Virus record (IMG/VR): IMGVR_UViG_3300038701_001228
Span: 1 to 55,502 of that record
DNA from: a virus
Reading direction: 5' to 3' (one strand)
Length of the DNA: 55,502 bases
Positions 40,078-55,502 of this stretch are shown here, piece after piece (within the stretch, counting starts at the first letter, position 1; each line of letters begins with the position of its first letter). Below the pieces are notes generated by a model that was not told the origin of the DNA, ran no database searches, and worked only from the letters and a program-made list of their open reading frames with translations. The translations under genes were made by a program, and so were the position numbers.

Positions 40078-40080
40078 TGG

Positions 40081-41634: not shown

Positions 41635-41920
41635 GGATGTACTCCCTCACTGCTTCAATCGTCGCTTCATCATAGGCGACAAAGCACTTGCCACCCGCTT
41701 TCTCGATGTCCCTCATGCACTTCATCTGGAGCGCCGTGGGCTTCTTGGTCTTGTCCGCCTTGCACTCGATGCCGACGAACTGGCCTGCGACCACGGCAAC
41801 CCGGTCAGGGATGCCAGCCACCCCGAAAGGGCCGGCCTGTGGACTGTAGAACCAGACACCTTCAGCCTTCAGCATCTTGTCCAGCTTGGACTTGATCCGG
41901 TTTTCCGGTGTCGCCGCCAT
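41528..41920 (-). CDS. VRR-NUC family nuclease
   Basis: PD-(D/E)xK signature GIPDRVAVV...VGIECK. The last ~35 codons overlap the helicase start by 107 nt. Confidence 0.65.
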   Translation of the reverse strand: MAATPENRIKSKLDKMLKAEGVWFYSPQAGPFGVAGIPDRVAVVAGQFVGIECKADKTKKPTALQMKCMRDIEKAGGKCFVAYDEATIEAVREYIRARHSKSQGAGAQAEEPGKGAGGGAVCQDAVLPWD

Positions 41921-41951
41921 AGCTACGCCCTCTTGTATAGTATGTCAAGTT

Positions 41952-42614: not shown

Positions 42615-42835
42615 TTCTTCTTCCCCTTGGTCTTGCGCGCGATGTAGATGAACTGGCCCGGGCCGCCCCGGGACTGGACGAGGCACACCTCACCGGCGTC
42701 ACTCGCCGCCATGGCGTCTCGCCGGTGAACCCCGCCGCAGTGCGGCCCGATGTGGTAGACGATGGGGTCGCCCGGTTCGACCTTCTCCAGTGCCTCGCGG
42801 AAGGCACCCTCCCGCTCGTTCGATATGTCGATCAT
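42611..42835 (-). CDS. Hypothetical protein
   Basis: 74-aa ORF with ATGA overlaps on both sides. Confidence 0.45.
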   Translation of the reverse strand: MIDISNEREGAFREALEKVEPGDPIVYHIGPHCGGVHRRDAMAASDAGEVCLVQSRGGPGQFIYIARKTKGKKK

Positions 42836-43311
42836 GCTAGTGCCGACCTCCCTTTGACAATGTCGCAGATACGTTGTTCAGATACACCGTACTCTAGCGC
42901 CAGCGCGCGACCGCGCTCTCCAGCGGCACGCCGCCGCCTAATTTCAGCGACCTGCTCAGGGCCGAGACGTTGGTTGCCACCGCGCCCCTTGCGGGCCATG
43001 TCCCTAGCATTGCCGGTGGGCGTGGCCCAGCATAGGTTGCTGATGCAGTTGTTGGTGGGATCATCGTCGCGGTGCATAACGACCGCACCATCTGGGCGTG
43101 GCCCATGGAACATGGTCAATACGAGTGCCCCGACCTCTAAGTCCACACGTGGGTTGGTGCTGACACGGACCTTCGCCCTCTGCGCCGACGGCCTGCGCGA
43201 ACCTGTCATCATGGGTGTGAGCACATGCCCGGTGCGCAGGTTTCGCACACGACCCCGGTCCGACACCTCGTACGGGTAATCTCCGGGTACCAGCTCCCAG
43301 AACTCATCCAT
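42832..43311 (-). CDS. HNH homing endonuclease (NUMOD4-like N-terminus, HNH core, C-terminal HTH)
   Basis: 159 aa from ATG 43311. YEVSDRGRVRN (NUMOD4-like), HRDDDPTNNCISNLCWAT (HNH), and a C-terminal HTH-like ALEYGVSEQRICDIV. The start shares one base with the polymerase stop. Confidence 0.75.
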   Translation of the reverse strand: MDEFWELVPGDYPYEVSDRGRVRNLRTGHVLTPMMTGSRRPSAQRAKVRVSTNPRVDLEVGALVLTMFHGPRPDGAVVMHRDDDPTNNCISNLCWATPTGNARDMARKGRGGNQRLGPEQVAEIRRRRAAGERGRALALEYGVSEQRICDIVKGRSALA

Positions 43312-45167
43312 CAGTGCGCCTCCCCATAATTTACACCCACGTCCGCCTCGCAGGCAACCGGCAGGTCCGGTGCCCACTTGGGCGCGGTGGACATCACGTC
43401 CATCATGAACGCCTTGCACTCGTCGGCCTGTGCCTCGGGCACCACGCAGACGATCTCGTCGTGGACCTGCAGGGCGACGGGGTAGCGCCGCCCGATCTTG
43501 GTCATCTGCTCAGCCACGACGATACGAGCGACCGCTTGGGTGATGTTCTCCACCATCTTCCCGCCGTAGAGCTTGGTCCACGTGAGCTCCGGGGTCTCCT
43601 CGCCCGCCACCCGGGCCTTGATGAACTTACGGTAGGTCCGCGGGTCGTTGATGTACTCGAACCCGTTGGCGGTGCGGCGCAGGGCCGGGTACCGGATGCG
43701 CATACCGTTGGGCAGGATCAGCCCATCGGCATCGAAGGGGATCAGGTCGCACACCTCGCCCTTCGCCCCGGCCTCCAGACCGTTCAGCGCGTGGTTGCAC
43801 CGGTTCCAGAAGGCTTGGATGCGGTGGTACTTGTTCCTGTACAGGTTGACGATCTGCTGCGCCTCGTGGCTCTCGACCTTCACCGAGATGAAGCCGGTGG
43901 CCAGCGAGTGTTGGAACTTGGCGGCACCCATGCCGTAGCCCAGCCCGAGGATACAGGTCTTGCCGACGTGTCTCTCCACCTTGTCACTCTTGGTGACAGG
44001 CCGCTGGTACACATCGGTGGCGAACTCGGAATACACGTCCCGCCCCTCACGGAAGGACTGCACGAGGTCGTTCTGCCCGGCGAGGTAGGCCACCAGTCGC
44101 GCTTCGATCTGGCTCGAGTCACAGGCCACGACCACGTGGCCGTCGGGGGCAGCCAGCGCCTTGCGCAGCGCACCCCCTCTCGGCAGGTTCTGCAGGTTCA
44201 CCTTGTCCCCGCCGCTGAAGCGACCGGTGTGCGCCCCGTAGTAGTTGAGCATGATAGGCAGCGGCCCGCGCTCGGAGATTTCCAGAAACCGCTTGGTGCG
44301 TGTCTCCTCGATGGTGCTCTTGGTCCCCAGCCGGGCCTCGACGATGGTGCGCACCGCCGCCTTGGGGTGTTCCAGCAGGGCCGTGAACGCGGTGTCGTTC
44401 TTGGCAAAGGCGTAGGTCTGCTTACCCGTGGTCGGGCTGGTTTTCATGGGTGGCTCCACGCCCATCGCCCGCAGCAGATCAGCGAACTTGTTGTTGGACA
44501 TGAGGAACTTCTTGGCCTTCTCCTCACCGCCCAGCTTCTCCAGCAGCTTCCGCTTGCGCTCGTAGATACCTTCGAGGTGGGCGTCCAGCACCACCGGGTC
44601 GAGCTCCAGCTTGGGCTCGGTGTACATGCGCAGCGTTTGGTCAATCACCAACAGCTCCTGCTTTGGGAACTGCCGGGCCATCTTCTTGAACAGGCGGTAA
44701 GTGAGGTTGGTGTCTTGGATGCAGTAGGCGGCGTAGGCGTCCATCTGCTCGGGCGTGAAGTCCCGGCGGCGCATCCCCATGGTGCGCATCACCTCGTCGC
44801 CCTTCTCGCCCAGCTTGTAGTAGGTCGCCAGCGCCTTGAGGCTGCCGCCCACGGTCATCGAGTGCAGGGGCCGGGCCATGCTCAGGGTATCCAGCCACAG
44901 CTTTGGGCGGATGCCGAACTTCCACGAGAGGATCGCTCCGTCGAAGGCTGCGTTGTGGGCGAGGATCGCCTTGTCGCTGTAGTCGATGCCGTGGAGGAAG
45001 CCTCCGGGGTCAGCCCCGGTGTACCAGTCCACCTCTTGGTCGTTGACCTTGACCGAGACACCGACGACCTCGAAGCGGGGGTCACGGATGTATGCCTCGG
45101 TCGTCATCTTGGACAGGCTGTAGTCCCTGTCGTAGTAGGTCTCGAAGTCGATGGTCACGATGTCCAT
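43311..45167 (-). CDS. Family A DNA polymerase with N-terminal 3'-5' exonuclease
   Basis: 618 aa. Exo I IDFETYY, motif A VVACDSSQIEARL, motif B RHVGKTCILGLGYGMG, motif C LQVHDEIV. Confidence 0.9.
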   Translation of the reverse strand: MDIVTIDFETYYDRDYSLSKMTTEAYIRDPRFEVVGVSVKVNDQEVDWYTGADPGGFLHGIDYSDKAILAHNAAFDGAILSWKFGIRPKLWLDTLSMARPLHSMTVGGSLKALATYYKLGEKGDEVMRTMGMRRRDFTPEQMDAYAAYCIQDTNLTYRLFKKMARQFPKQELLVIDQTLRMYTEPKLELDPVVLDAHLEGIYERKRKLLEKLGGEEKAKKFLMSNNKFADLLRAMGVEPPMKTSPTTGKQTYAFAKNDTAFTALLEHPKAAVRTIVEARLGTKSTIEETRTKRFLEISERGPLPIMLNYYGAHTGRFSGGDKVNLQNLPRGGALRKALAAPDGHVVVACDSSQIEARLVAYLAGQNDLVQSFREGRDVYSEFATDVYQRPVTKSDKVERHVGKTCILGLGYGMGAAKFQHSLATGFISVKVESHEAQQIVNLYRNKYHRIQAFWNRCNHALNGLEAGAKGEVCDLIPFDADGLILPNGMRIRYPALRRTANGFEYINDPRTYRKFIKARVAGEETPELTWTKLYGGKMVENITQAVARIVVAEQMTKIGRRYPVALQVHDEIVCVVPEAQADECKAFMMDVMSTAPKWAPDLPVACEADVGVNYGEAH

Positions 45168-45622
45168 CAGTCGTCTCCGATATGGGTGATGGTGACACCA
45201 GCCTCGTCGAACTGGCGGTGGGTCAGGGCGAGGTCGTCCGCCCAGCGGGTGGCGAACTCAGGGGTCGGGTGAGGCCACATCACATGGCTGATCCCGGCTT
45301 GGATCACCAGCGCAGCACACTGGGAACAGCAGGGGTGGGTGACGACGAGGGTGCAGCCCTCAAGCGGTGCCGTTGCGAACATGATCGCGTTGGTCTCGGC
45401 GTGGATGGTCATCCGGTACTTGGTGTTCCGGTCCTTGAGGCGGGCAGGGTCGTCCTTCACCCCACGTGCAAAGCCGTTGTACCCGGCGCTGACGAGTCGG
45501 CGCTTGGGGTCGAAGATCACGGCACCCACTTGGGTGCTCGGGTCCTTGCTCAGCGTGGCGACCTGCCGGGCCATGCCCAGCGCCCAGTCCCGCAGCTTGC
45601 GAGTATCTAGTGGATAATCCAT
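45167..45622 (-). CDS. dCMP (deoxycytidylate) deaminase
   Basis: 151 aa with the zinc-binding motifs HAETNAI and PCCSQC. Confidence 0.8.
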   Translation of the reverse strand: MDYPLDTRKLRDWALGMARQVATLSKDPSTQVGAVIFDPKRRLVSAGYNGFARGVKDDPARLKDRNTKYRMTIHAETNAIMFATAPLEGCTLVVTHPCCSQCAALVIQAGISHVMWPHPTPEFATRWADDLALTHRQFDEAGVTITHIGDD

Positions 45623-45646
45623 TCGCTTCTCCTTATGGTAGTCAGG

Positions 45647-45663
45647 CCCGGCATGGTGCCGGG
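45647..45663. other. 7-bp stem / 3-nt loop hairpin upstream of the dCMP deaminase gene
   Basis: cccggca-tgg-tgccggg is a perfect inverted repeat. Confidence 0.5.
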
Positions 45664-45712
45664 TGTCCGCGCGACCCCGGCGTTTAGCCCACGTCGGTGT
45701 CTATTGGTCTGG

Positions 45713-45745
45713 CCCCCGGCGCTCACCCGCCGGGGGTTTTCTTTT
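45713..45745 (+). terminator. Plus-strand-oriented intrinsic terminator inside the minus-strand arm
   Basis: cccccggcg (45713-45721) / cgccggggg (45728-45736) form a perfect 9-bp stem with a 6-nt loop, followed by ttttctttt on the plus strand only. Confidence 0.6.
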
Positions 45746-45954
45746 CACCCATCGACCGCTCTCCTCAGTTCCTCTAGCGTCCTGCGCACCTGCCAGTCGT
45801 TGCGCTTGGACGAGTTGTTCGCCACGCAGACCATCGGCTGATCCTCGATCTGCACGAAGTAGTGGTCTCGCTTCTTGACCAGTCGCCACGGGACGGGGAG
45901 GGCGGCGATCACTCGCCGCACCCGTTTGTCAATCTGTCGTGGTAGGTCTGTCAT
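45745..45954 (-). CDS. Hypothetical protein
   Basis: 69 aa from ATG 45954. The track start 46011 is an extension into the upstream gene. Confidence 0.4.
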   Translation of the reverse strand: MTDLPRQIDKRVRRVIAALPVPWRLVKKRDHYFVQIEDQPMVCVANNSSKRNDWQVRRTLEELRRAVDG

Positions 45955-46387
45955 CGGTCCCGATCCCCCGTGCTTCAAAGGCGGTGAGAAACGCCAGACA
46001 ACAAGCCGCATGGGCGAGGTGGCTCATACCCGTCTCGGGGTCGTTGTCCTCCCCGCTCCACCACGCTGCCATGTGCCGACGCAGGGCGGCGTAGGGCCGG
46101 CCCCACTTCATGCCCAGTTCCCAGTTACGCTCGCCATACTTGGCTGCCCCGAAGGTCAGCACCTTGGCGATGGCCTCCTCGACCTCCGGCGGGATCAGAT
46201 CATACCGGGCCTTGCCGGTGTCGAACTTCAACCCCTCCACCGGCTCCCGCCAGTTCTCGCTGGCGATCCGGTCGATCAGACCCTGTGCGTAGTCCACATC
46301 CACGTCACAGTTCATCGCCACGTCCTCAGCCGTGGCCTGCCGGTTGGCCAGCAGATACCGCCAGCACCGTTCTTCCGTTGGTGTCAT
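45929..46387 (-). CDS. Putative nucleoside-triphosphate pyrophosphohydrolase-like protein (phage dATP/dGTP diphosphohydrolase-type N-terminal domain)
   Basis: 152 aa from ATG 46387 (SD GAGGAG). From memory, the block FDTGKARYDLIPPEVEEAIAKVLTFGAAKYGERNWELG...RHMAAWWSGEDNDPETGMSHLAHAACCLAFL resembles that family. Confidence 0.4.
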   Translation of the reverse strand: MTPTEERCWRYLLANRQATAEDVAMNCDVDVDYAQGLIDRIASENWREPVEGLKFDTGKARYDLIPPEVEEAIAKVLTFGAAKYGERNWELGMKWGRPYAALRRHMAAWWSGEDNDPETGMSHLAHAACCLAFLTAFEARGIGTDDRPTTTD

Positions 46388-46388
46388 G

Positions 46389-47180
46389 TCACTTCTCCTC
46401 AATCGCGCCGAACCGCTTGCGCAGCTCAATGCTCTGGTTCTTCACGACCTTCTCGATGCGCTCATAGAGGTCCATCGAGTTGGAAGCCGAGCCCCAGATG
46501 TTCACTTCACTCGCTGCGAACATACGGATCAGGTCCGTGCCGCAGTCGCAATCCTTGATTGCTTTGTATAGTATGTCAAGCTCTTTCGGGTCATTCCACA
46601 CCGGTCTATCGACCCACCCGGTAGGCGATGCCCGTTCCTCGGCGATCAGTTTGTCGAAGGCTCCGAGCCGGGCGGCGACCTTCAGCTTGCGCTTCCATGC
46701 CCTGAGTGCAGCGAGCCAGACCTTGCGGTTCGCCTCGTTGACCTTGGGTTTGAACGCCTCATCGGGCTTGGGGTTGAGACACTTGCCGGTGGTCAGGTCG
46801 AACGTGAGGCCGGTGTAGACAATGGGCGAGTTGGTCGGGGTCAACATCCACTCCCAGTTTAACCCGCCGCCATCGTCGAGGTTCTCCCGGTGCTCCACCC
46901 GGTATTTCTTGTACCCGACCCGGGCCCAGCGGAACGGCAGGTTCCGGTTCATCGTGGCGCTGAGGGACTGGGCCACCGCGTAGGATGCCTCCCCGTCGGT
47001 GGTAAACATGAACGTGTTGTCAGGAAGGAACCGCCCGACCTCGTGGTCATACACCCTCACCGCATACTCGTCCCCGTCTTGGAACAACCGCCAGCCTGCG
47101 CCATTCATGGGCCGGCCCTTGGCCTTGTTCCGTGCCTTCTCCATGTGCAGCTGCGCTGCCTTGTAGCTTGAGATCATCAC
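46389..47180 (-). CDS. Hypothetical protein
   Basis: 263-aa ORF with no motif recognised. Confidence 0.5.
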   Translation of the reverse strand: MMISSYKAAQLHMEKARNKAKGRPMNGAGWRLFQDGDEYAVRVYDHEVGRFLPDNTFMFTTDGEASYAVAQSLSATMNRNLPFRWARVGYKKYRVEHRENLDDGGGLNWEWMLTPTNSPIVYTGLTFDLTTGKCLNPKPDEAFKPKVNEANRKVWLAALRAWKRKLKVAARLGAFDKLIAEERASPTGWVDRPVWNDPKELDILYKAIKDCDCGTDLIRMFAASEVNIWGSASNSMDLYERIEKVVKNQSIELRKRFGAIEEK

Positions 47181-47440
47181 TTCACTCCCAGTCGTTTCTT
47201 CGTTGCGGCAGCGACCAGTCGCTCCCGTTGCTCCTCGCCGGTCGGCAGGGCGTCCTTGGCGAACACCAAGGGGGTCACGTCCTGCTCCTCACCGACGTTC
47301 TCCATCTCTGCCCAGCAGTCGCTGCACAGCCACATGCGGCACAGAGGTGCCCATGCCACCTCCTCGGGGTGGTAGCAGGACATCTCCGGTGCGCCCTCGT
47401 GGCAGCTCTCGCACACCGCCAGCAGCTTAGGCAGCCTCAT
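47177..47440 (-). CDS. Cys-rich (zinc-finger-like) small protein
   Basis: 87 aa with CESC...C...C...CSDC spacing. Confidence 0.5.
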   Translation of the reverse strand: MRLPKLLAVCESCHEGAPEMSCYHPEEVAWAPLCRMWLCSDCWAEMENVGEEQDVTPLVFAKDALPTGEEQRERLVAAATKKRLGVK

Positions 47441-48041
47441 CGCAATCCTCCTCGTCTTGGTCCCACTCGTTCGCCTCGATGGTCTCCCACACCGCCTCGT
47501 CGCTGGTGAGGTGGTCGTACTCAGCCTTCAGCTTGCTGTAGAGGTCCTGCATGTAGGACCGCCACTGCTCGATCACGTCATCCTCGAAGTCCTCCATCTC
47601 GCGCTCCAGCTGTCGCTGCCAGTTCTCCACGATCTGCTCGTGGAACTCGGTCGGCTGGTCCACCATGCCGGTGAGGGTGTCGCTGCTCACCCAGAAATCG
47701 GTGCAGTTCTCGTGGTTGTAGCGGCCACGGTGCTTGCACTGGACGTAGAGCCCGCCGCCATGCTCCAACAGCTTGCGGATCATGGGGTATTGGTCCTTGT
47801 GGTGATGGTCGAGGTACTTGAGCGTGTCGTCCAGCGACCCCTCGAAGCAGGCCCCGTCACCCTGCGAGGCGAACCCGCTGAAGAGCATACGCCACACCGT
47901 GATGCCGACGGCCTCCATGTCCTCCTTGAAGTGCTCGTAGACGCAGTCCCACCAGTAGTTGAGCTCGACGTTAATGTAGCGGTGCTTCTCCAGCAGCCGT
48001 TCGCGTTGCGATGAGCTCACCATTTTCTCCGATCCAGACAT
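47427..48041 (-). CDS. Acidic hypothetical protein
   Basis: 204 aa (198 aa if ATG 48023 is used; both have an SD). SGFASQGDGACFEG block and a very acidic C-terminus (EANEWDQDEEDCDEAA). Confidence 0.5.
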   Translation of the reverse strand: MSGSEKMVSSSQRERLLEKHRYINVELNYWWDCVYEHFKEDMEAVGITVWRMLFSGFASQGDGACFEGSLDDTLKYLDHHHKDQYPMIRKLLEHGGGLYVQCKHRGRYNHENCTDFWVSSDTLTGMVDQPTEFHEQIVENWQRQLEREMEDFEDDVIEQWRSYMQDLYSKLKAEYDHLTSDEAVWETIEANEWDQDEEDCDEAA

Positions 48042-48246
48042 GTGCTTCTCCCTTGGCTACGTCCAGCAGGACGGTCTTGAAAAACTCGTTCTCCGTTGCG
48101 TGCAGCTCGGCGTGCTTCGACGCCAAGTCGCGGTCGTTCTCGGCCTTGGCCAGCTGGGCCGTCAGCTTCCTGATCTGGCGCTCTTGCCAGCCGGTCCAGA
48201 AAAAGGCGGCCACAAGGGCCGCCGTCATGATGAGTAGGTCTGTCAT
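47971..48246 (-). CDS. N-terminally membrane-anchored small protein
   Basis: 91 aa with [19 protein letters not shown]. Overlaps the downstream gene by 53-71 nt. Confidence 0.4.
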
Positions 48247-48839
48247 TCAGTGATCTGTCCTGTTTTCTTGAAGCGATAGAGCGCGGTCTCGTATTTGATC
48301 CCGAGTTCTGCCGCTGCATGTTTCAGATACCGCCCATCCGGCATAAGTACTCCGTCCTTTCTCTTGCGCTGATTCTGTGTTTGCTCTTTGCGGGTTGCCC
48401 ACCGACAATTCCACGGGGCATAAGGCCCATCGTTATCGACCCGCTCGATGGTGTGCTGTGGTGTAGGGCGCTGACCCATGTCCTCACGGAACCGTTGGTA
48501 GTCATCGGCCCATTCAGGGCACACCGTGATGCCCCGTCCACCATAGTTGTGGTAGGACAGGTTGGTGGGATCGAGACAACGCCGCTTCATGTTCTGCCAG
48601 ACAACGAACTCTGGCTCCCGCTGCGCACCCCGTCTCGCCCCGCCATGTAGGGTGGACTTCTCGGCAGTGACTTCCGCCCTTAAACAACCACAAGACCGTG
48701 TGTGTCCTGACCTCAGCTTGTCAGATGGTACGATACGCTCGGCACCACAGTCACACATACACCGCCAGTATTTCCCTTGGTGTCGGGCGACGACAGTGAG
48801 CCGCCCGAACTTTTCGTTTGTCAGGTCAATACGATACAT
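48243..48839 (-). CDS. Putative HNH-family / homing-endonuclease-like DNA-binding protein
   Basis: 198 aa with FGRLTVV...WRCMCDCG...SCGC...[13 protein letters not shown]...NCRWAT. From memory this pattern occurs in many free-standing phage endonuclease-like genes. Confidence 0.4.
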
Positions 48840-48861
48840 GGTCTAGCCCTCTGGTATGGGT

Positions 48862-49998
48862 TCAGCCCATCATACATACTTCTCCAAATGGAGCCTTGTC
48901 AAGACCTGTAGATACCCAAAGCACAGGGCAGTCGGGTGCGTCACCGAAGTCGTGACAATACAGGTCGGTGAGGAACACGATCCCGGCGGGTTCGATGTCG
49001 TTCTCCTCGATGTATTTGAACACGGGGCTGAAGGCGGTGCCGCCACCGCCACGGGGGTTGAACTCGAACTCGTCGTCACGTGTCAGGGTATCGACGGCAC
49101 AGACCTCGTGGCTGAAGAAGATCATGTGCAGCTTGGACGGCTTGCCGTCCTCGTGAACCACCCGGCACTCGGCACCATACTGGTTCGCCTCGTCTTGGCT
49201 GATCGACCCGGACATATCCACGGCGAACACCAGCTCGCCGAGGACCTCGCCGCTGACAGTAGGCATATACAACCCTTGGCTGAGGAACCGGCGGTTGGGC
49301 CGGGCGAAGCTGCGCTGGTCGTTCTTGGCCTTCTGCACGAACTGGTGCAGTCGTTCACGCCAGTCGACCTTGGGCTTGAGCACCTCGTCCACCAGCCGGG
49401 CCATGTTGGCGCTCATCTTGCCCATCATCTTGGCGGCCTGTGCGGCTTGGGCCACCTTGATCTTCCACTCGGCAGCCTCTTGGGCCTGCTCGGCTTGGCT
49501 GCCCTCGCCGTCCTCGAGGTCGTCGCCGGGTCCACCGGGTCCGTCACCGTCGCCGTCACCATCTGGCAACAGGTTGTAGATACCGTCGCTCGTGCCGCCG
49601 CCGTTGGTGTAGATGTTCTGGTCGAGGCAGCCACCCTCGATGAACTTGCCAATGCCCTCGTCCACCAGCAGCTGGTTGATGACGTAGTCGGCAGCCTTGT
49701 TCCACTTCTTGGGGTCGCGGGAACCGCGGCGGTAGTTGTGCTCCAGCATGGGGTGCAGACACTCATGAGCCACGAGGAACTTGAGCTCCTCGTCGGTGAG
49801 CGGCTCGATGAAGTCGGCGGAGTAGAGGACCCGCTTGCCGTTGGTGCAAGCGGTAGGGGCCCGGCCAGAGGCCCGCAGCTGCTCCTCGAACTCCGGCGTC
49901 ATCAGCTCCATGGGCATGTTGAGAGCCACCGACCCGATGAACGGGTGTTCGAGGATCAGGCTCGTCTTGGCTTTGCTCAGTCGCTTCATCAGGTCCAT
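48862..49998 (-). CDS. vWA-domain protein with an N-terminal HExxH metallopeptidase-like domain (DUF2201 / CobT-like partner of MoxR ATPases)
   Basis: 378 aa with HECLH (LVAHECLHPMLEH) in the N-terminal half and the MIDAS motif VDMSGSIS in the C-terminal half. Confidence 0.7.
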   Translation of the reverse strand: MDLMKRLSKAKTSLILEHPFIGSVALNMPMELMTPEFEEQLRASGRAPTACTNGKRVLYSADFIEPLTDEELKFLVAHECLHPMLEHNYRRGSRDPKKWNKAADYVINQLLVDEGIGKFIEGGCLDQNIYTNGGGTSDGIYNLLPDGDGDGDGPGGPGDDLEDGEGSQAEQAQEAAEWKIKVAQAAQAAKMMGKMSANMARLVDEVLKPKVDWRERLHQFVQKAKNDQRSFARPNRRFLSQGLYMPTVSGEVLGELVFAVDMSGSISQDEANQYGAECRVVHEDGKPSKLHMIFFSHEVCAVDTLTRDDEFEFNPRGGGGTAFSPVFKYIEENDIEPAGIVFLTDLYCHDFGDAPDCPVLWVSTGLDKAPFGEVCMMG

Positions 49999-50171
49999 TA
50001 GTTTTTCTCCTTCTTGCGCTTCACTTTGGTGACGGCTTCCTCCCAGCCCAGATCACCAAGCAACCCGTTGTTAAGACGGGCTTGCTCGTAGTCAGCAATG
50101 TCTGCCGCCTCGTCGATGGTGGCTGCCTCTACCGTACGGTAGAGGGCCAGTTCGATCTCAAACTTAGGCAT
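49998..50171 (-). CDS. 57-aa hypothetical protein (not in the ORF track)
   Basis: Translated by hand: MPKFEIELALYRTVEAATIDEAADIADYEQARLNNGLLGDLGWEEAVTKVKRKKEKN. SD GGGAGGA. Overlaps both neighbours by 1 nt. Confidence 0.5.
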   Translation of the reverse strand: MPKFEIELALYRTVEAATIDEAADIADYEQARLNNGLLGDLGWEEAVTKVKRKKEKN

Positions 50172-51025
50172 CAGTTCAGTCCTCCCATGAAGGCTGCCAT
50201 CTTGGCAGCGATGTCGTTGGCTTCGGTCGCTGCGGTCTCCCGGACCTTGGGGTCGGCCCGCAGGGTGTCGGGCTGGATACCAGCCAGCTTGGCCTCGACC
50301 TCTTGGCGCATGGCCTCGAGGTTGGGGTCCTCCATCACGTTGAGGCGAGGCAGCAGGTCACACAGGTCGACGAGGTGCTCCACGGTGGAATCCCGGAAGA
50401 TCGCCTTGGGGTCGTCCATCTTATCGGCGTAGTGCTTCACCTTGTCATAGAGCCGCTGCCACACGTCCTGCATGGCCTGCTGCCCAGCCTGTTTGACCCG
50501 GGCCTCGACCTCATCGTGGATACGCTCCAGCTCTGCGTCGGCGATGTTCACCCTGAAGTCGTTGTTCGGGACAGGCATGACCTGCATGTCCATCTTGAAC
50601 TTGTCGCCGATCTCGTGAGCCTCGGGGTAGTCGGTCGGCTTGTATGCTGCACCGAGAAACCGCTGCGCATCCACTACCAGCTGGGGGTAGGCCGGCACGA
50701 ACCGGTTGACCAGCGCCTCATACTCGGCCCGCTCTTTGCGGAACTCGGTCATGAAGGCGAGGTAGTTGGCGGTCGGCAGGATTTGGGTGCCCTTCACACC
50801 CCACGGCAGGGTATTGTCGTAGAACCGCTGGCGGATCAGGCTGGCCTTCTTCTTGATGTCATCCAGCAGGTCACACATCGGCAGCAGGCTCTTGTGATAC
50901 CGCCCGGCGTTCTGCTGGACGCCCTTGATGTTGTTGGTCTCGGCGCTGATCTCCTTGTCCAGCTTGTTGGCAGACCAAGTGGAGATGTTGAGTTGCACGA
51001 GGAGGGCACGGTCAGAGAGTTTCAT
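50171..51025 (-). CDS. DUF3150-like protein
   Basis: 284 aa from ATG 51025 (SD AAGGA). The N-terminal block LVQLNISTWSANKLDK and the ~290-aa length match my memory of the DUF3150 family. Confidence 0.45.
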   Translation of the reverse strand: MKLSDRALLVQLNISTWSANKLDKEISAETNNIKGVQQNAGRYHKSLLPMCDLLDDIKKKASLIRQRFYDNTLPWGVKGTQILPTANYLAFMTEFRKERAEYEALVNRFVPAYPQLVVDAQRFLGAAYKPTDYPEAHEIGDKFKMDMQVMPVPNNDFRVNIADAELERIHDEVEARVKQAGQQAMQDVWQRLYDKVKHYADKMDDPKAIFRDSTVEHLVDLCDLLPRLNVMEDPNLEAMRQEVEAKLAGIQPDTLRADPKVRETAATEANDIAAKMAAFMGGLN

Positions 51026-51036
51026 GTTACGTCCTT

Positions 51037-51639
51037 TCACTTCGCTTTGGGGATGGTGGGCAGGTCAGCGCCCAGTTTACGCAGGTCGTCCACCACAGGG
51101 GCAGCGACGGCGGGCAGGAGAGCGTTCTTGTCGCCCTCCTTGGGGATCAGGTGATGCAGCTCAGGCTCGAGCACATCATACAACCGCTTGACGGTCGTCA
51201 CGCTGCGGAGGGTGTTGAACAGCCGGGACTGCACGCTGGAGAGGAGTTCCTCCTGCTCCTTGTGCTTGGCGTAGTAGCCACTGGCGATGATGGCGTCGGA
51301 TATGGCCCCATGCAGAGGGCCAGCGTGGTGGCCCAGCCCGTCGATCCGGATGCAGAGATCACGGCGATCCGTCGGATGGCCGTAGAATTTGTGGTAGCCG
51401 TAGCACCCGCTGCCATCCCGAATCGTCATCCCGGAGTTCCCTTCCCTCAACCTGACGGGGAACGTGTTGAGGTAGGGGCGCTGCTTCAGGTCGTCATAGG
51501 CCATCTGGATGTGCAGCGGCATGTGGTCCCGGAGGACATTCTGCACCACGGCAGCCATCAGGGGGTGGTAGTCGATGTTCGGCACCGAGGCCATCGCCTT
51601 CTTGAGGATCATGTTGCGGATGTCGGTGTTCAGTCTCAT
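51037..51639 (-). CDS. Hypothetical protein
   Basis: 200-aa ORF. Confidence 0.5.
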   Translation of the reverse strand: MRLNTDIRNMILKKAMASVPNIDYHPLMAAVVQNVLRDHMPLHIQMAYDDLKQRPYLNTFPVRLREGNSGMTIRDGSGCYGYHKFYGHPTDRRDLCIRIDGLGHHAGPLHGAISDAIIASGYYAKHKEQEELLSSVQSRLFNTLRSVTTVKRLYDVLEPELHHLIPKEGDKNALLPAVAAPVVDDLRKLGADLPTIPKAK

Positions 51640-51642
51640 GTC

Positions 51643-51888
51643 TCAGTCCTTTCTGAGGGTTGGTGCGGCTCCGGTCAGCCGGAGGAACGCTTGGTAGGTG
51701 ATGAACTGGCGGGGATACTTCCCCGCCAAGAACTGGTCCCATGTGATGGGACGGGTGGTGTAGACCTTGTGCTCGGTGTAACTCATACGCGCACGCTGCC
51801 ACTCACCGGTGAGGGCGAACATTTCATCACCGGTGACTCGCCCGGTGATGCGTAACCACCGGGCAAACGTGGGGCCTTTGGCCGTCAT
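51643..51888 (-). CDS. Hypothetical protein
   Basis: 81-aa ORF. Confidence 0.45.
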   Translation of the reverse strand: MTAKGPTFARWLRITGRVTGDEMFALTGEWQRARMSYTEHKVYTTRPITWDQFLAGKYPRQFITYQAFLRLTGAAPTLRKD

Positions 51889-52109
51889 CTTGTCAGCCTC
51901 CGCTGGGTGGAGAACACAAGGAACAGGTCGGGTCGCTTACGTGCCAGTGAGGCAGCGTAGGAGGCCCTTGGATGCGCACCGGCATTGGTGAGCATCAAAA
52001 ACACTATCCCGTCCTTGGACACCGCACCGCGATCCACAAGGTAGTCACGCCATAACGCAATCGCTTGTGGATCATCGGTGAAGAACTTGTCCGGGTCAGA
52101 ACAGCACAT
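51885..52109 (-). CDS. Hypothetical protein
   Basis: 74-aa ORF with ATGA overlap. Confidence 0.45.
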   Translation of the reverse strand: MCCSDPDKFFTDDPQAIALWRDYLVDRGAVSKDGIVFLMLTNAGAHPRASYAASLARKRPDLFLVFSTQRRLTR

Positions 52110-53091
52110 CTTGGTGTGCCAGAGCCCACTTGGTAAAGGCTGCCGTGTTGGTCAGGTCGGTGTCCCGACGCACTGCCATGGACATACTGAGCACGGCGAA
52201 CTCGGCAGGCATCCGGCTGGTGTATGTCACCATCCGTTCGAGGTTGCCCTCCGTGGCCCGTTCAGCGATGGCACCGGACAGGGCGTAGAGCGTGGCGGGG
52301 TCGGTCGGCACGTCAGCCGTGTCGGGGTTCATGAGGATCGCATCGGGGTTGGGCAGCTTGCGGTAGATACGAACGAACCCGACGAACTCAGCCGCTGCAC
52401 CCTCACCGACGGCACCCTTGAAGCACTCATACTCAGCCTCGGCAGGCACCTTGCCGAGCACTGCGGACACACCCTCGACCCAGCTACGGGGTGTGGGGTT
52501 CACGTCCCGCTGGGGGTCGAAGTCGTGGAGGAGGTGAGGCCGGAACCGGATGAACGCAACGACCATGGGGTTGACGTTGTGGTCAATCATCCAGCTGGTG
52601 CTGTCATCGAGATGGGTCTCGAACTCGAGCACGGTCTCACGGTTGCGGAGGTGGGACAGAACCCGGTTGGCCCCAGCCCTGTCGGACTGGCGGTTGCCGG
52701 TCGACACCACCGTCCAGCCATCGGCGAGAGGTGCCCCGTGGAGGTTCCGAGCCTGCTGGATGTTGGCCAGCACCTTCTGAAGGTCGGCGTTGGCTTGGTT
52801 CCTGTCGTCGAACAGCAGCACCCCGCCACCCTCGGTGCCGGCCTTGCCCTTGACGGGATACCAGTCGGGCAGCTTGTAGCTGAAGGACGAACCGTCAGCG
52901 TCGGGGTAGGGTATGCCGAAGTCCTCCACCAGCATGGTGGGCATGTGCTTCTCGACGATGGGCAGCCCGAGGCTCTCGGCCACCTCGTGGACGATGGTGG
53001 TCTTGCCGCCACCCGGTGCCCCCTCGATAGCGACAGAGCGACCGGCAGGGATCAGGGCAGACAGCGTGGACTTGAGGAGCGATGCTCGCAT
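52096..53091 (-). CDS. AAA+ ATPase, MoxR / CobS-like
   Basis: 331 aa. Walker A GAPGGGKT, Walker B VLLFDD, sensor-like VVSTGN. SD GGAG. Confidence 0.75.
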   Translation of the reverse strand: MRASLLKSTLSALIPAGRSVAIEGAPGGGKTTIVHEVAESLGLPIVEKHMPTMLVEDFGIPYPDADGSSFSYKLPDWYPVKGKAGTEGGGVLLFDDRNQANADLQKVLANIQQARNLHGAPLADGWTVVSTGNRQSDRAGANRVLSHLRNRETVLEFETHLDDSTSWMIDHNVNPMVVAFIRFRPHLLHDFDPQRDVNPTPRSWVEGVSAVLGKVPAEAEYECFKGAVGEGAAAEFVGFVRIYRKLPNPDAILMNPDTADVPTDPATLYALSGAIAERATEGNLERMVTYTSRMPAEFAVLSMSMAVRRDTDLTNTAAFTKWALAHQDVLF

Positions 53092-53106
53092 TTTCGTTTC
53101 TCCATT

Positions 53107-53177
53107 TGGCTTGACTCATCAGTGCCGTGGTAGCCAACCACGACAGACGGGCCGCTTGTGTAGCGGCCCGTTTCGTC
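53107..53177 (-). ncRNA. Type II hammerhead ribozyme (HHR-c)
   Basis: Minus strand: GAC-GAAAC-GGGCCGC-uacacaa-GCGGCCC-GUC^UGUCGUGG-uuggcua-CCACGGCA-CUGAUGA-GUC-AAGCCAA. Full catalytic core. Predicted cleavage between 53146 and 53145. Confidence 0.85.
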
Positions 53178-53179
53178 TC

Positions 53180-53998
53180 TCATCCGTGCTTCCGAATCTG
53201 GCTGATGGCGTTCTGCACCTGCTGGTAGGTCTCGAAGTAGGGTATGGTCTGGGTGTCGTAGCACGTCTCGTACTGGTAGACGGCCTCCCGGAGTGCCCGC
53301 AGCTCAGTCTCCACCGGGACGGCGTTACTCATCCGGGCTGTGATCTCAGCCCAGCCCTTCTCGCCTTGGCTGAGGTAGCCAAGGGCCTCCTTCCCCGACC
53401 AGCCGTAAGGATTAATGTTGTATCTGCGACCGAACTCAGCCACCCCGAGACGTATCTTGGTCTCCAGCCACAGCTTGAACGTGTAGTAACCAGCCTCCTT
53501 GAGGGCCTGCTTACCCTCCTTGCGGTTGAGGTATGGCACCTCGAACGGCACCGCTCCACCGACCAGCTCCCAACCGGTCTCTTTGGGCTGGACGACGAGG
53601 TGATCCGGGGTGTGGTAATACCGCCCATTCACTTCCGTGATGTTGTCCGGGGCAGGGTAGTCCCGATCAGACCACATGGGGCTGACATGGGGACCGAGGA
53701 GCGACCAGACGAACCGGGTGGTAAGGCTGGAGGCATAAGGCTCAAGCTCGATGAGGTTGTTGTTCCCATCCCCATAGGAGCGGTAGCGGATCACGTCGGT
53801 GGAGTAGAGGCGAACCACGATGTCCCCCGAACACTCCTCCTGACGGATCGTCATGTTGTCGTTCCCCCGTCGACCCAAGGGACGGGTGTTCTGGTCGGAT
53901 CGACCACGGATAGGCTTGATGGCCTTCCACTTCTTGAAGGCGCTGTCGTAGGACAGCAGACGGCTCTCAGGCAGGATGGTGTTGTTTGCACCGATCAT
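53180..53998 (-). CDS. Hypothetical protein
   Basis: 272 aa from ATG 53998 (SD GGAG). The track start 54055 translates through the ribozyme and is rejected. Confidence 0.55.
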   Translation of the reverse strand: MIGANNTILPESRLLSYDSAFKKWKAIKPIRGRSDQNTRPLGRRGNDNMTIRQEECSGDIVVRLYSTDVIRYRSYGDGNNNLIELEPYASSLTTRFVWSLLGPHVSPMWSDRDYPAPDNITEVNGRYYHTPDHLVVQPKETGWELVGGAVPFEVPYLNRKEGKQALKEAGYYTFKLWLETKIRLGVAEFGRRYNINPYGWSGKEALGYLSQGEKGWAEITARMSNAVPVETELRALREAVYQYETCYDTQTIPYFETYQQVQNAISQIRKHG

Positions 53999-54016
53999 GG
54001 TGTTCTCCAGTTTGTT

Positions 54017-54082
54017 GTGGCTTGTCTCGTCAGTGTGCTGGTAGCCAACCAGCACAGACCACCCCGAAGGGTGGTTTCGACA
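54017..54082 (-). ncRNA. Type II hammerhead ribozyme (HHR-b)
   Basis: Minus strand: UGUC-GAAAC-CACCC-uucg-GGGUG-GUC^UGUGCUGG-uuggcua-CCAGCACA-CUGACGA-GACA-AGCCAC. Predicted cleavage between 54057 and 54056. Confidence 0.85.
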
Positions 54083-54083
54083 G

Positions 54084-54401
54084 TCACAGGTTGAGATACT
54101 TGGCGACGGAGTAGGCGTTCACAGACAGCCTCACGACCATCGTGCCGGGCTTGTGGTCAGGGAAGTAACCAGTGGCCTCCCAACCAGCGGTGCCAAGGGA
54201 CGTGGTCCCGTCCCACATATTGGCCCTGACCATGTCCCGGATATGGTCGATGGAGGATCGACCGGGGTTGATGACCTCCAGCACCTTGGCTGTCTGCTCA
54301 AGGCTATGCTCGTCGAACTCGATGTTGAACCCTTGGTTGATGCAGTCAGCCTTGCGCTGCCACTCGTCACGGATTTGCTGCTCAGTGGTGGACGAAAGCA
54401 T
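54084..54401 (-). CDS. Hypothetical protein
   Basis: 105-aa ORF with SD GGAG, flanked on both sides by hammerhead ribozymes. Confidence 0.55.
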   Translation of the reverse strand: MLSSTTEQQIRDEWQRKADCINQGFNIEFDEHSLEQTAKVLEVINPGRSSIDHIRDMVRANMWDGTTSLGTAGWEATGYFPDHKPGTMVVRLSVNAYSVAKYLNL

Positions 54402-54421
54402 GTCACGTTCTCCAATGTGTT

Positions 54422-54486
54422 GTGGCTTGTCTCATCAGCACAGCAGGAGCCACCTGCTGTGGACCACCCCGAAGGGTGGTTTCGAC
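54422..54486 (-). ncRNA. Type II hammerhead ribozyme (HHR-a)
   Basis: Minus strand: GUC-GAAAC-CACCC-uucg-GGGUG-GUC^CACAGCAGG-uggcu-CCUGCUGUG-CUGAUGA-GAC-AAGCCAC. Predicted cleavage between 54462 and 54461. Confidence 0.85.
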
Positions 54487-54614
54487 TAGGAAACCCAGAG
54501 GAAGTTGGTGTTGTTGGAGTATCGACGCTGGTAGTCAGCGTAGGACACCCAGTCGAACCACACTGTCTCACCAGACAGAGGGCAGCGAAGGTAAACGTCA
54601 CCGTAAGTGTTCAC
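54486..54614 (-). CDS. Possible 42-aa protein (not in the ORF track)
   Basis: GTG 54614 overlaps the upstream stop (GTGA), with SD GGAG 9 nt upstream. Sequence (M)NTYGDVYLRCPLSGETVWFDWVSYADYQRRYSNNTNFLWVS. The last base of its TAG stop is the first base of HHR-a. Confidence 0.4.
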   Translation of the reverse strand: MNTYGDVYLRCPLSGETVWFDWVSYADYQRRYSNNTNFLWVS

Positions 54615-54886
54615 AGCTCAATCTCCAAAGGGGCACAGTGAGGCTGATAGTGGATGTGGACATGGGTGTACCCATACTCCCGGAGGTGACGACGTTCGTC
54701 GACAGCTACCACCGAGCCGTAGTAGGGACTCGCTTCCGTCGTGATGACGAACTCTTTACCAGCTGCCCAGTCATAGCCAGCGTCAGCTTGGTGGAGATAG
54801 GTCCGTCGACGAGGACGGACTGTCACGATACGGTGGTCATGGTGATCGGTGAGATCGGCAAGTTTAGCCCAGACGGAAGTAGTCAC
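54611..54886 (-). CDS. Early hypothetical protein, tandem paralogue of 54883..55104
   Basis: 91 aa. Its C-terminal half aligns with the upstream neighbour (LREYGYTHVHIHYQPHCAPLEIEL vs LRDMGYTHVEFRLGAQSLEVAL). Confidence 0.5.
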   Translation of the reverse strand: MTTSVWAKLADLTDHHDHRIVTVRPRRRTYLHQADAGYDWAAGKEFVITTEASPYYGSVVAVDERRHLREYGYTHVHIHYQPHCAPLEIEL

Positions 54887-55104
54887 AGTGCCACCTCCAG
54901 AGACTGAGCACCGAGACGGAACTCAACATGGGTGTATCCCATGTCACGTAGGGTCGGTTCCTCGTAGCAGTCAATGGTCAAACCTGACAGACGGTCATAA
55001 CCACGGACTAGCACAGGCTTCCCTGATCGGTAATCGTTAAGCACTTGATGGGGGTTGGTGTAGGTCGAGAGAGGTGCAGTGGGCTGCACAGACAGGATAG
55101 TCAT
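54883..55104 (-). CDS. First early gene, hypothetical protein (paralogue of 54611..54886)
   Basis: 73 aa from ATG 55104 (SD AAGGAA). The track start 55203 extends into the AT-rich non-coding region. Confidence 0.5.
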   Translation of the reverse strand: MTILSVQPTAPLSTYTNPHQVLNDYRSGKPVLVRGYDRLSGLTIDCYEEPTLRDMGYTHVEFRLGAQSLEVAL

Positions 55105-55375
55105 GTGTATAGTTCCTTGGATTTGGTATATACCAGCGGGGCCTGCCCCGACGGCGAAGCCAAGCTGGCACGACCGGCTCGGCGTGTCAAGTTTGGTTGC
55201 CAAGCCCTTGATTTCGCTCGATTTTCGCTCGGCATGTTTATTAAGAAAGTTGACAGTGGTTTAGGTGTTTTATCTGTAGGGGGTGCGAAACTTACTTTTT
55301 AAGTGTTTGAAAACAAAGGAACTATCTATTTATCTATCTATCTGTTGAAAATAAACACGGCCCCTGAGAGATAGG
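55105..55375. promoter_or_regulatory. AT-rich non-coding region upstream of the early (minus) arm; candidate early promoters / origin
   Basis: No credible ORF. Contains the minus-strand AAACTTGACACGC motif (55183..55195; second copy at 227..239), a plus-strand TTGACA at 55250, and the left arm of the ATCTAT inverted repeat. Confidence 0.55.
55320..55343. repeat. Left arm of the 24-nt imperfect inverted repeat (partner 58..81 / 55433..55456)
   Basis: aactatctatttatctatctatct compared with the reverse complement of 58..81: 20/24 identical. Confidence 0.7.
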
Positions 55376-55502
55376 AGATCGTTGCCATTTACAACGAATA
55401 AGGGTCGCCTACGGAAGAAGGGTTAATTTTAGAGATAGATAGTATAGTAGATAGTTAATTATAACTAAACTAACCTACCCCCTGTGGTATCCCGCTGGTT
55501 TT
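55376..55502. repeat. Second copy of the 127-bp end sequence (identical to 1..127)
   Basis: Exact identity to 1..127. Confidence 0.95.

What the first reader, a model, noticed from the sequence alone, without database searches (positions are those of the whole stretch)
53091..54614. Stop codon - ribozyme - RBS architecture would excise two cistrons as discrete RNAs
Each ribozyme begins 0-3 nt after a stop codon: UAG shares its G with HHR-a, UGA-CU precedes HHR-b, and UGA-GA precedes HHR-c. Each ends 15-20 nt before the next start codon, leaving the GGAG Shine-Dalgarno just outside the fold.

Cleavage would release a 405-nt RNA (54461..54057, carrying the 105-aa ORF) and a 911-nt RNA (54056..53146, carrying the 272-aa ORF). 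It would also give the AAA+ ATPase message a new 5' end. Every product would start with the stem I hairpin and a 5'-OH, and end with stem III and a 2',3'-cyclic phosphate.

This is a ribozyme-based way to uncouple the stability and stoichiometry of neighbouring early genes. The two internal fragments also have exactly the end chemistry that RtcB-type ligases join, so circular mRNAs are conceivable. The circularisation idea is my speculation.
Basis: inference. Interest (0 to 1): 0.8.

Follow-up and report, generated by a model that had tools for sequence, protein, structure and literature searches.

The report
Three hammerhead ribozymes between phage genes
Three self-cutting RNA motifs (type II hammerhead ribozymes) fill the gaps between the first genes of an uncultured phage's early operon and should chop the long transcript into single-gene messages; the pattern is real and conserved, but this arrangement and the proposed role were already described for phages in 2011.

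Summary
Three complete type II hammerheads lie on the minus strand at 54487..54420, 54082..54015 and 53178..53104. All score above Rfam's gathering threshold and have canonical cores. Stems I, II and III and the loop I/tail pseudoknot are present. Each ribozyme starts -1 to +2 nt from a stop codon, and a GGAG Shine-Dalgarno follows it.

This is not chance. In 107 distinct related hammerheads from phage contigs, 77% abut a stop codon (null 5%). In 100 of them, 78% are followed by an SD and start codon within 10-35 nt (null 7%). Covariation is strong. Every other junction in this operon overlaps or is at most 22 nt, and relatives lacking a ribozyme at the same junction have tightly abutting genes.

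Processing of the polycistronic RNA into hairpin-capped single-gene mRNAs is the best explanation. It is also the hypothesis Perreault et al. published in 2011 for clustered phage hammerheads. They looked for circular products and found none.

This is a new member of a known kind. Circular mRNA remains unsupported speculation.

The parts
54420..54487 (-). HHR-a, a type II hammerhead ribozyme. Stem II is GUC/GAC and stem III is CCACCC-UUCG-GGGUGG. Stem I has 9 bp with loop UGGCU, which pairs with the tail AGCCA (54427-54423). Predicted cleavage is after C54462.
   Evidence: Rfam RF02276 at 45.8 bits; model R2 at 79.3 bits; sequence read.
54015..54082 (-). HHR-b, a type II hammerhead. Its 25-nt stem II/III half is identical to that of HHR-a. 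The core reads CUGACGA, where N7 = C is an allowed variant. Predicted cleavage is after C54057.
   Evidence: Rfam at 37.7 bits; R2 at 80.7 bits; 25-nt exact repeat D2.
53104..53178 (-). HHR-c, a type II hammerhead. Stem II is GAC/GUC, compensatory relative to HHR-a and HHR-b. Stem III is longer (10 bp). Loop UUGGCU pairs with tail AGCCAA. Predicted cleavage is after C53146.
   Evidence: Rfam at 40.6 bits; R2 at 80 bits.
54486..54614 (-). 42-aa ORF (GTG start, 4-nt overlap with the upstream 91-aa ORF). The G of its UAG stop is the first base of stem II of HHR-a.
   Evidence: The L002 orthologue shows only synonymous differences in the last 14 codons. tblastn gives 88% identity in L002.
54084..54401 (-). 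105-aa ORF, the only cistron on the predicted 405-nt fragment (54461..54057). Conserved hypothetical protein.
   Evidence: 57 homologues, none named. AF2 pLDDT 92.3, no PDB fold neighbour.
53180..53998 (-). 272-aa ORF, the only cistron on the predicted 911-nt fragment (54056..53146). Conserved hypothetical protein.
   Evidence: 108 homologues, all hypothetical. AF2 pLDDT 92.5, no PDB match; only uncharacterised phage proteins in BFVD.
52096..53091 (-). 331-aa P-loop, MoxR-like AAA ATPase gene. Its mRNA would start at U53145 after HHR-c cleavage.
   Evidence: phrog_1297 ATPase, E = 5e-67. Pfam AAA_5 and AAA hits fall just below their cut-offs. About 26-31% identity to ATPases of cultured phages, including Erwinia, Pseudomonas, Rhizobium and Vibrio phages and Bacillus phage G.
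55204..55502 (-). AT-rich non-coding region (GC 0.385, genome 0.613) upstream of the operon. It is the likely promoter region for the transcript that carries the three ribozymes.
   Evidence: No sigma-70 consensus promoter was found on the minus strand between 49000 and 55502, and no terminator-like site below 55361.

Best explanation
**The element.** The three elements are active type II hammerhead ribozymes embedded in the sense strand of the leftward operon of a complete ~55.4-kb uncultured tailed phage (probably a podovirus).

**The predicted cuts.** As the polycistronic RNA is made, each ribozyme folds and cuts itself between stem III and stem I. [quoted passage not shown]

**The predicted products.**
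- Each upstream message keeps its stop codon and ends 24-34 nt after it, in the G+C-rich stem III hairpin with a 2',3'-cyclic phosphate.
- Each downstream message begins with a base-paired 5'-OH at the foot of the 9-bp stem I hairpin. That hairpin is locked by the loop I/tail pseudoknot.
- A free GGAG and ATG follow 12-21 nt later.

**The proposed consequence.** The 105-aa gene, the 272-aa gene and the ATPase-led remainder of the operon become separate mRNAs with standard, structure-capped ends and their own ribosome-binding sites. Elsewhere in the operon, and in relatives, the same kinds of junction use overlapping stop/start translational coupling instead. The ribozymes would therefore decouple translation and decay of neighbouring cistrons, acting as a natural insulator analogous to synthetic RiboJ-type parts.

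**Shown.** Motif identity, covariation, conserved placement and strand.

**Inferred.** Cleavage in vivo, product release, and any effect on stability or stoichiometry.
For: **Motif identity.**
- All three score above the Rfam gathering threshold and have canonical cores.
- In 28 distinct related copies, 98.6% of stem cells are paired and 16 of 19 pairs show compensatory changes. No shuffle of 500 reached this, and slid controls give 29-46%.
- The pseudoknot is 91.5% paired, with C-G to U-A swaps.

**Orientation.** All 38 copies found in the window and the ATPase-defined loci lie on the coding strand.

**Placement.**
- A stop codon ends within -3..+4 nt of stem II in 82 of 107 copies (null 5%).
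- An SD plus start codon follows 10-35 nt after stem II in 78 of 100 copies (null 6.6%).

**Within-genome control.** Ribozyme junctions have 84-88-nt spacers. All other operon junctions measure -14 to +22 nt.

**Between-genome control.**
- The same junctions exist without a ribozyme in relatives, and there the genes abut.
- Orthologous junction ribozymes keep a stem I lineage with compensatory changes.

**Folding.** Stem I forms at the extreme 5' end and stem III at the extreme 3' end of the predicted products.

**Transcription signals.** No consensus promoter or terminator lies between the cistrons.

**Precedent.**
- Triple hammerhead clusters from A. tumefaciens, A. caulinodans and C. scindens cleave during in vitro transcription, and the A. 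tumefaciens ones also in vivo (PMC3088659).
- Three type II hammerheads cleave in vivo in D. vulgaris (PMC8782182).
Against: - There are no RNA data for this phage, and its host is unknown.
- Ribozyme presence is patchy. Only 7 of about 61 loci in the 68-76% ATPase-identity clade carry one near the ATPase. The same junction works without one in relatives. The element is therefore dispensable for expression as such.
- A stop codon touching stem II means a terminating ribosome would melt stem II and part of stem III. Folding must therefore compete with translation.
- In hosts with RNase J, 5'-OH products can be destabilised rather than protected. The glmS precedent is cited in PMC6765202.
- An SD-unmasking effect of cleavage is not general.
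Confidence: 0.6

Rival explanations
1. **Selfish or recombinational element.** The hammerheads are small intergenic elements that spread and are exchanged between gene junctions. They could act as conserved 'linker' sequences for cassette shuffling among phages. Cleavage would have little or no consequence for expression of the flanking genes.
For: - Distribution across relatives and junctions is patchy.
- HHR-a and HHR-b share an identical 25-nt half.
- Stem III types at the 105->272 and 272->ATPase junctions are swapped between the window and L001.
- The gene set between ribozymes varies: the 42-aa and 105-aa genes are present or absent.
- The same 15-mer occurs in at least 119 stretches of diverse viral contigs.
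Against: - A DNA-level element needs neither a preserved catalytic core nor RNA-level compensatory changes. Both are seen in more than 100 distinct copies.
- All copies are in sense orientation.
- Placement relative to the stop codon and SD is precise.
- Orthologous copies persist at a junction across diverged genomes.
Confidence: 0.15
2. **Programmed decay.** Cleavage marks the early transcript for rapid degradation, as with glmS. It would serve to shut off or limit early gene expression rather than to create stable monocistronic mRNAs.
For: - The glmS ribozyme precedent, in which the 5'-OH product is degraded (summarised in PMC6765202).
- The host, and therefore its RNase repertoire, is unknown.
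Against: - Both product ends are buried in stable hairpins.
- Every ribozyme is followed at a conserved distance by a strong SD and a start codon. That fits continued translation of the product.
- One cut would be enough for decay, yet clusters of 2-4 bracket single genes.
Confidence: 0.12
3. **Circular mRNAs.** The 405-nt and 911-nt fragments, which carry a 5'-OH and a 2',3'-cyclic phosphate, are joined into circles. The joining would be by a host RtcB-type ligase or by the reverse hammerhead reaction.
For: - The end chemistry is right.
- For the 405-nt fragment, the HHR-a 3' half (GAC) and the HHR-b 5' half (GUC) could rebuild stem II.
- Eukaryotic retrozymes use this route (PMC7229834).
Against: - No RtcB or RNA-ligase family was hit in any tested ORF of the window.
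- For the 911-nt fragment the two halves give GAC with GAC, a central mismatch.
- Three base pairs cannot hold together the ends of a 0.4-0.9-kb RNA.
- Perreault et al. looked for circular or spliced products from such clusters and found none (PMC3088659).
Confidence: 0.04

Closest known systems
Clustered hammerhead ribozymes flanking genes in prophages and phages (Perreault et al. 2011, PLoS Comput Biol, PMC3088659). One example is the Agrobacterium tumefaciens triple hammerhead around ardA.
   Same: - Several hammerheads lie a few hundred nt apart, in sense orientation, bracketing single small genes of a phage transcript.
- The proposed role is the same: processing long RNAs into single-gene mRNAs.
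- The same circular or spliced-RNA idea was considered.
   Different: - This is a different, uncultured ~55-kb phage lineage, and the flanked genes are different (105-aa and 272-aa proteins of unknown fold, and a MoxR-like ATPase).
- All three copies here are type II.
- The tight stop-codon overlap and fixed SD distance are quantified here across about 100 copies. I did not find that stated in the papers I read.
Rfam RF02276, Hammerhead ribozyme type II
   Same: Canonical core, open stem II of 3 bp, closed stems I and III, and a loop I/3'-tail pseudoknot. Scores are above gathering.
   Different: Nothing structural. N7 = C in HHR-b is an allowed variant.
HHphage in haloviruses HF1/HF2 (PMC3088659)
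   Same: The ribozyme lies about 13 nt upstream of the start codon of an early replication-type gene. The mapped 5' end of the transcript coincides with the cleavage site.
   Different: It is a single ribozyme at the start of a transcript in an archaeal virus, with a variant core that depends on high salt.
Synthetic ribozyme insulators (RiboJ-type parts) and engineered inter-cistronic RNA processing. This comparison rests on my own knowledge and was not checked in a paper here.
   Same: Self-cleavage removes upstream RNA, so each cistron has a defined 5' end with a hairpin ahead of its RBS.
   Different: Those are engineered from type III sTRSV hammerheads and leave almost the whole ribozyme on one product. 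Natural type II copies split into one hairpin per product.

Membership tests
Hammerhead ribozyme, type II (RF02276) | Score at or above the curated gathering threshold of the family model | tested here: met
   45.8, 40.6 and 37.7 bits against a threshold of 37.
Hammerhead ribozyme, type II (RF02276) | Conserved catalytic core: C3 U4 G5 A6 N7 G8 A9, G12 A13 A14, the A15.1-U16.1 pair, H17 at the cleavage site, and the G10.1-C11.1 pair | tested here: met
   Read from the sequence: CUGAUGA or CUGACGA, CGAAA, and ...GUC before stem I in all three.
Hammerhead ribozyme, type II (RF02276) | Three helices around the core, supported by covariation | tested here: met
   98.6% of cells paired. 16 of 19 pairs show changes on both sides, and no shuffle of 500 reached this. 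The alignment was fitted to the model, but slid controls give only 29-46%.
Hammerhead ribozyme, type II (RF02276) | Type II topology: stems I and III closed by loops, stem II open | tested here: met
   cmscan structure lines and folds of the products.
Hammerhead ribozyme, type II (RF02276) | Pseudoknot between loop I and the tail 3' of stem II | tested here: met
   UGGCU with AGCCA in HHR-a and HHR-b, and UUGGCU with AGCCAA in HHR-c. Across 28 copies it is 91.5% paired, with C-G to U-A swaps in 3 copies.
Hammerhead ribozyme, type II (RF02276) | Site-specific self-cleavage giving a 2',3'-cyclic phosphate and a 5'-OH | not testable with these tools
   Needs in vitro transcription or end-specific RNA-seq.
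Clustered phage hammerheads that flank genes (Perreault 2011) | Two or more hammerheads within a few kb, in the same orientation as the genes, bracketing single genes or short gene blocks in a phage or prophage | tested here: met
   There are three copies, spaced 405 and 911 nt apart, each gap holding one ORF. The phage context includes terminase, portal, major head protein, DNA polymerase and primase. In related contigs, 21 loci have two or more copies, spaced 235-1411 nt.
Clustered phage hammerheads that flank genes (Perreault 2011) | The cluster lies on one polycistronic transcript | tested here: inconclusive
   No consensus promoter or terminator lies between the cistrons, and an AT-rich region lies upstream. 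There are no transcript data, and phage-specific promoters would not be detected.

The most novel reading that the evidence does not exclude
The near-universal contact between the upstream stop codon and stem II could make cleavage depend on translation. In 24 of 107 copies the stop codon even shares its last base with stem II, and UAG is the commonest stop. A ribosome sitting on the stop codon must unwind stem II and part of stem III. Each ribozyme could then fold and cut only in the gaps between terminating ribosomes, or after translation of the upstream gene stops. Release of the downstream message would be tied to the translational state of the upstream gene. A second unexcluded reading is that a host RtcB-type ligase circularises the excised single-gene RNAs.
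Probability: 0.08. Interest if true: 0.7.

Novelty: new member of a known kind. Interest (0 to 1): 0.3.

Why it matters
The biological role of bacterial and phage hammerheads is an acknowledged open question (PMC6765202, PMC6155905). This locus does not change what is known. It does give a clean example and, with its relatives, a natural comparison:
- The same gene junctions occur with a ribozyme (an ~85-nt spacer with its own SD) and without one (overlapping or abutting genes).
- The rule 'stop codon touching stem II, SD about 10-20 nt after the tail' holds over about 100 distinct copies.

That makes a direct reporter test easy to design: junction with ribozyme, with a dead ribozyme, and the ribozyme-free orthologue. 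It also supplies natural, compact inter-cistronic insulator parts.

Tried and rejected
- **Other ribozyme classes at ribozyme-free junctions of relatives.** None was found at Rfam gathering in 16 loci.
- **Hammerheads in the nearest cultured relative.** None was found in the ATPase region of Rhizobium phage RHph_TM3_14A, with either R2 (filters off) or Rfam at E <= 0.1.
- **A fourth, degenerate copy in the window.** None was found.
- **Cleavage unmasking the SD.**
  - In the uncleaved HHR-a context, the SD pairs with an upstream CUCCAA.
  - The predicted unpaired probability rises from 0.03 to 0.93 on cleavage.
  - CTCC is not enriched upstream of 108 hammerheads (6-8% against 7-11% at random positions).
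  - The mean change in SD accessibility is only 0.48 to 0.52. I rejected this as a general rule.
- **Function of the excised genes.**
  - Pfam and PHROGs gave no hit.
  - The AlphaFold models are confident, but there is no PDB neighbour.
  - BFVD returned only uncharacterised phage proteins.
- **An RNA ligase or RtcB in the phage.** No such family was hit in any tested ORF.
- **Near-identical cultured phage.** Megablast of the region found nothing.
- **The 2749-aa protein against PDB sequences.** No match.
Full report
**What is there**

Rfam finds three matches in the whole 55.5-kb window. All are type II hammerheads (RF02276) on the minus strand, at 54487..54420, 54082..54015 and 53178..53104, and all score above the gathering threshold. 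A more permissive scan of 40000-55502 adds nothing credible. A family-specific covariance model run without filters finds no fourth copy.

Reading the sequence, each copy has these features:
- The canonical core: CGAAA, then GUC before the cleavage site, then CUGAUGA. HHR-b has CUGACGA, where N7 is free to vary.
- A 3-bp open stem II. It is GUC/GAC in HHR-a and HHR-b, and GAC/GUC in HHR-c, which is a compensatory swap.
- A closed stem III and a closed 9-bp stem I.
- A stem I loop (UGGCU or UUGGCU) complementary to the tail just 3' of stem II (AGCCA or AGCCAA). This is the pseudoknot typical of type II hammerheads (PMC3088659).

Cleavage after C17 falls after 54462, 54057 and 53146. The internal fragments are 54461..54057 (405 nt) and 54056..53146 (911 nt), as stated.

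| Ribozyme | Upstream stop | Bases before stem II | GGAG | Next ATG |
|---|---|---|---|---|
| HHR-a | UAG 54488-54486 | none; its G is the first base of stem II | 54413-54410 | 54401 |
| HHR-b | UGA 54086-54084 | CU | 54008-54005 | 53998 |
| HHR-c | UGA 53182-53180 | GA | 53103-53100 | 53091 |

'15-20 nt before the start codon' is roughly right. The distance is 12-21 nt depending on where the 3' end of the ribozyme is drawn.

The flanking ORFs are genuine genes:
- The 105-aa and 272-aa proteins have 57 and 108 homologues.
- The three differences seen in the last 14 codons of the 42-aa ORF, compared with relative L002, are all synonymous.

**Genome context**

- The window begins and ends with the same 127 nt. 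It is therefore a complete phage genome of about 55.4 kb.
- The plus strand carries terminase, portal, major head, internal virion and tail-spike-like genes.
- The minus strand carries primase/helicase, helicase, exonuclease, DNA polymerase, dCMP deaminase, two HNH endonucleases, an Nmad5-domain protein and the MoxR-like ATPase.
- The three ribozymes sit among the first six genes of the minus-strand operon. An AT-rich non-coding region lies just upstream (GC 0.385 against 0.613 for the genome).
- No consensus promoter or terminator separates the cistrons.
- The nearest cultured phages are distant. Rhizobium RHph_TM3_14A and Pseudomonas KPP25 share 37-39% DNA polymerase identity.

**Is it more than chance?**

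I collected 80 related loci through the ATPase and one through the 272-aa protein from IMG/VR. I added three more through homologues of the 272-aa protein.

A covariance model built from the three window copies, then rebuilt from its hits, gave these results:
- It found 38 hammerheads in the window and these loci, all on the coding strand. It found one in each of the three extra loci.
- Rfam independently confirmed 12 of them at gathering.
- Across 28 distinct sequences, 98.6% of stem cells are paired and 16 of 19 pairs show compensatory changes. No shuffle of 500 reached this, and slid controls give 29-46%.
- The pseudoknot is 91.5% paired, with C-G to U-A swaps.

The 15-mer CUGAUGAGACAAGCC occurs in at least 119 stretches of viral contigs. 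The model finds 105 hammerheads in the 80 stretches returned, often in clusters of 2-4. Spacings between neighbours are 235-1411 nt.

Over all distinct copies:
- A stop codon closing an open frame of at least 40 codons ends within -3..+4 nt of stem II in 82 of 107 (random positions 5%).
- In 24 copies the stop codon shares its last base with stem II, and UAG is the commonest stop.
- An SD plus the start of an ORF of at least 40 codons lies 10-35 nt after stem II in 78 of 100 (random 6.6%; median 25 nt).

The 'stop - ribozyme - RBS' layout is therefore a conserved property of this ribozyme subfamily, not a coincidence of this window.

**Controls that bear on function**

- Within the window, the three ribozyme junctions have spacers of 84, 85 and 88 nt. 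Every other junction in the operon overlaps by 1-14 nt or has a 3-22-nt gap.
- Among relatives without a ribozyme before the ATPase, the ATPase start overlaps or abuts the upstream stop.
- The same junction occurs with and without a ribozyme:
  - 105->272 has one in the window, L001, L002 and L005, but not in L011, L014 or L027.
  - 91->272 has one in L003, L009 and L082, but not in L084.
- Where a ribozyme is present, orthologous copies keep a recognisable stem I lineage with compensatory changes.

These results argue for long-term selection on the RNA structure. They also show that the element is modulatory rather than essential.

**Mechanism**

Type II topology puts the cut between two closed hairpins. 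After cleavage only the 3-bp stem II holds the halves together, so they should part.

Folding of the product ends gives this picture:
- Stem III sits at the extreme 3' end of each upstream RNA, and the stop codon is retained 24-34 nt upstream of that end.
- Stem I sits at the extreme 5' end of each downstream RNA, with the 5'-OH nucleotide base-paired. The pseudoknot tail and the SD follow.

It is established that base-paired 5' ends lacking a monophosphate are poor entry points for 5'-end-dependent RNases, and that 3' hairpins impede 3' exonucleases. From this I infer that the ribozymes turn one operon RNA into separately stable, separately translated messages. These would replace the translational coupling used elsewhere in the operon. 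This step is inference, because no RNA data exist for this phage.

**Comparison with what is known**

- Perreault et al. 2011 described exactly this: multiple hammerheads, including the newly found type II, flanking single genes or short blocks in prophages.
  - They suggested processing into single-gene mRNAs.
  - They showed cleavage of three triple clusters in vitro and of one in vivo.
  - They considered circular or spliced products but could not detect them (PMC3088659).
- Reviews repeat the hypothesis and call the biological role unresolved (PMC6765202; PMC6155905).
- Type II hammerheads near phage-like genes cleave in vivo in D. vulgaris (PMC8782182).

The finding is therefore a new member of a known kind.

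**Circular mRNA**

- The end chemistry fits. For the 405-nt fragment, the two ribozyme halves could rebuild stem II.
- For the 911-nt fragment, the halves give GAC against GAC.
- Three base pairs are too few to hold the ends of such long RNAs together.
- No ligase family was hit in any tested ORF.
- The only published search for circles from such clusters was negative.

I rate this reading at about 4%.

**Dead ends**

- An attractive idea was that cleavage frees the SD from an upstream anti-SD. This is predicted for HHR-a, where the unpaired probability rises from 0.03 to 0.93. It is not general: CTCC is not enriched upstream of 108 copies, and mean SD accessibility barely changes.
- The two excised proteins have confident predicted folds with no PDB neighbour and no family assignment. 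The identity of the cargo does not explain the ribozymes.

**Verdict**

The architecture and products are correct, the function is plausible but untested, and circles are unsupported.
- Novelty is low.
- The modest added value is the quantified stop/SD placement rule and the natural with/without-ribozyme junction pairs, which make the open question of phage hammerhead function easy to test with reporters.

Noticed in passing
window 1-127 and 55376-55502: There is an exact 127-nt terminal direct repeat. The contig is therefore a complete genome of about 55.4 kb, either a circular assembly overlap or true terminal repeats.
   Followed up: partly
window 53180-53998 (-) and 54084-54401 (-): The 272-aa and 105-aa proteins give confident AlphaFold models (pLDDT 92) with no PDB fold neighbour and no Pfam or PHROG family. 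For the 272-aa protein, a BFVD search returned only two uncharacterised phage proteins; BFVD was not searched for the 105-aa protein. Both are conserved in this uncultured phage group.
   Followed up: partly
window 54057-54081 and 54462-54486; L001 2782-2859 and 3679-3749: Ribozyme halves are reassorted. HHR-a and HHR-b share an identical 25-nt stem II/III half. The stem III types at the 105->272 and 272->ATPase junctions are swapped between the window and L001. This suggests recombination or gene conversion between copies at the conserved core.
   Followed up: partly
window 54611-54886 (-) and 54883-55203 (-): The 91-aa and 106-aa ORFs at the head of the operon look like paralogues. They share a ...GYTHV... 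segment (27-nt repeat, 74% identity) and similar C-termini (LEIEL and LEVAL).
   Followed up: no
window 50171-53091 (-): A MoxR-like ATPase is followed by small ORFs, an Nmad5 (nucleotide modification associated) domain protein and a conserved 289-aa protein. Relatives place a DUF2201 metallopeptidase-like gene downstream (L082-L084). This may be a conserved functional module of unknown role.
   Followed up: no
window 26975-35224 (+): A 2749-aa ORF lies next to internal-virion-protein genes. It matches only PHROGs of unknown function and has no PDB sequence match. It may be a giant ejected or virion protein.
   Followed up: partly
L146 8797-8873 and 9174-9249, L154 3859-3933, L148 12172-12243, L135 3166-3235, L158 5157-5227 (strand-oriented positions for minus-strand hits): Six model hits in other phage contigs lack a canonical CUGANGA core. 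They are either core variants or decayed ribozymes sitting inside hammerhead clusters.
   Followed up: no
window 54385-54520 (-): In the uncleaved HHR-a context, the SD (UUGGAG) is predicted to pair with CUCCAA inside the end of the 42-aa ORF, which would enclose the whole ribozyme. Cleavage would free the SD. This is not a general feature of the family.
   Followed up: yes
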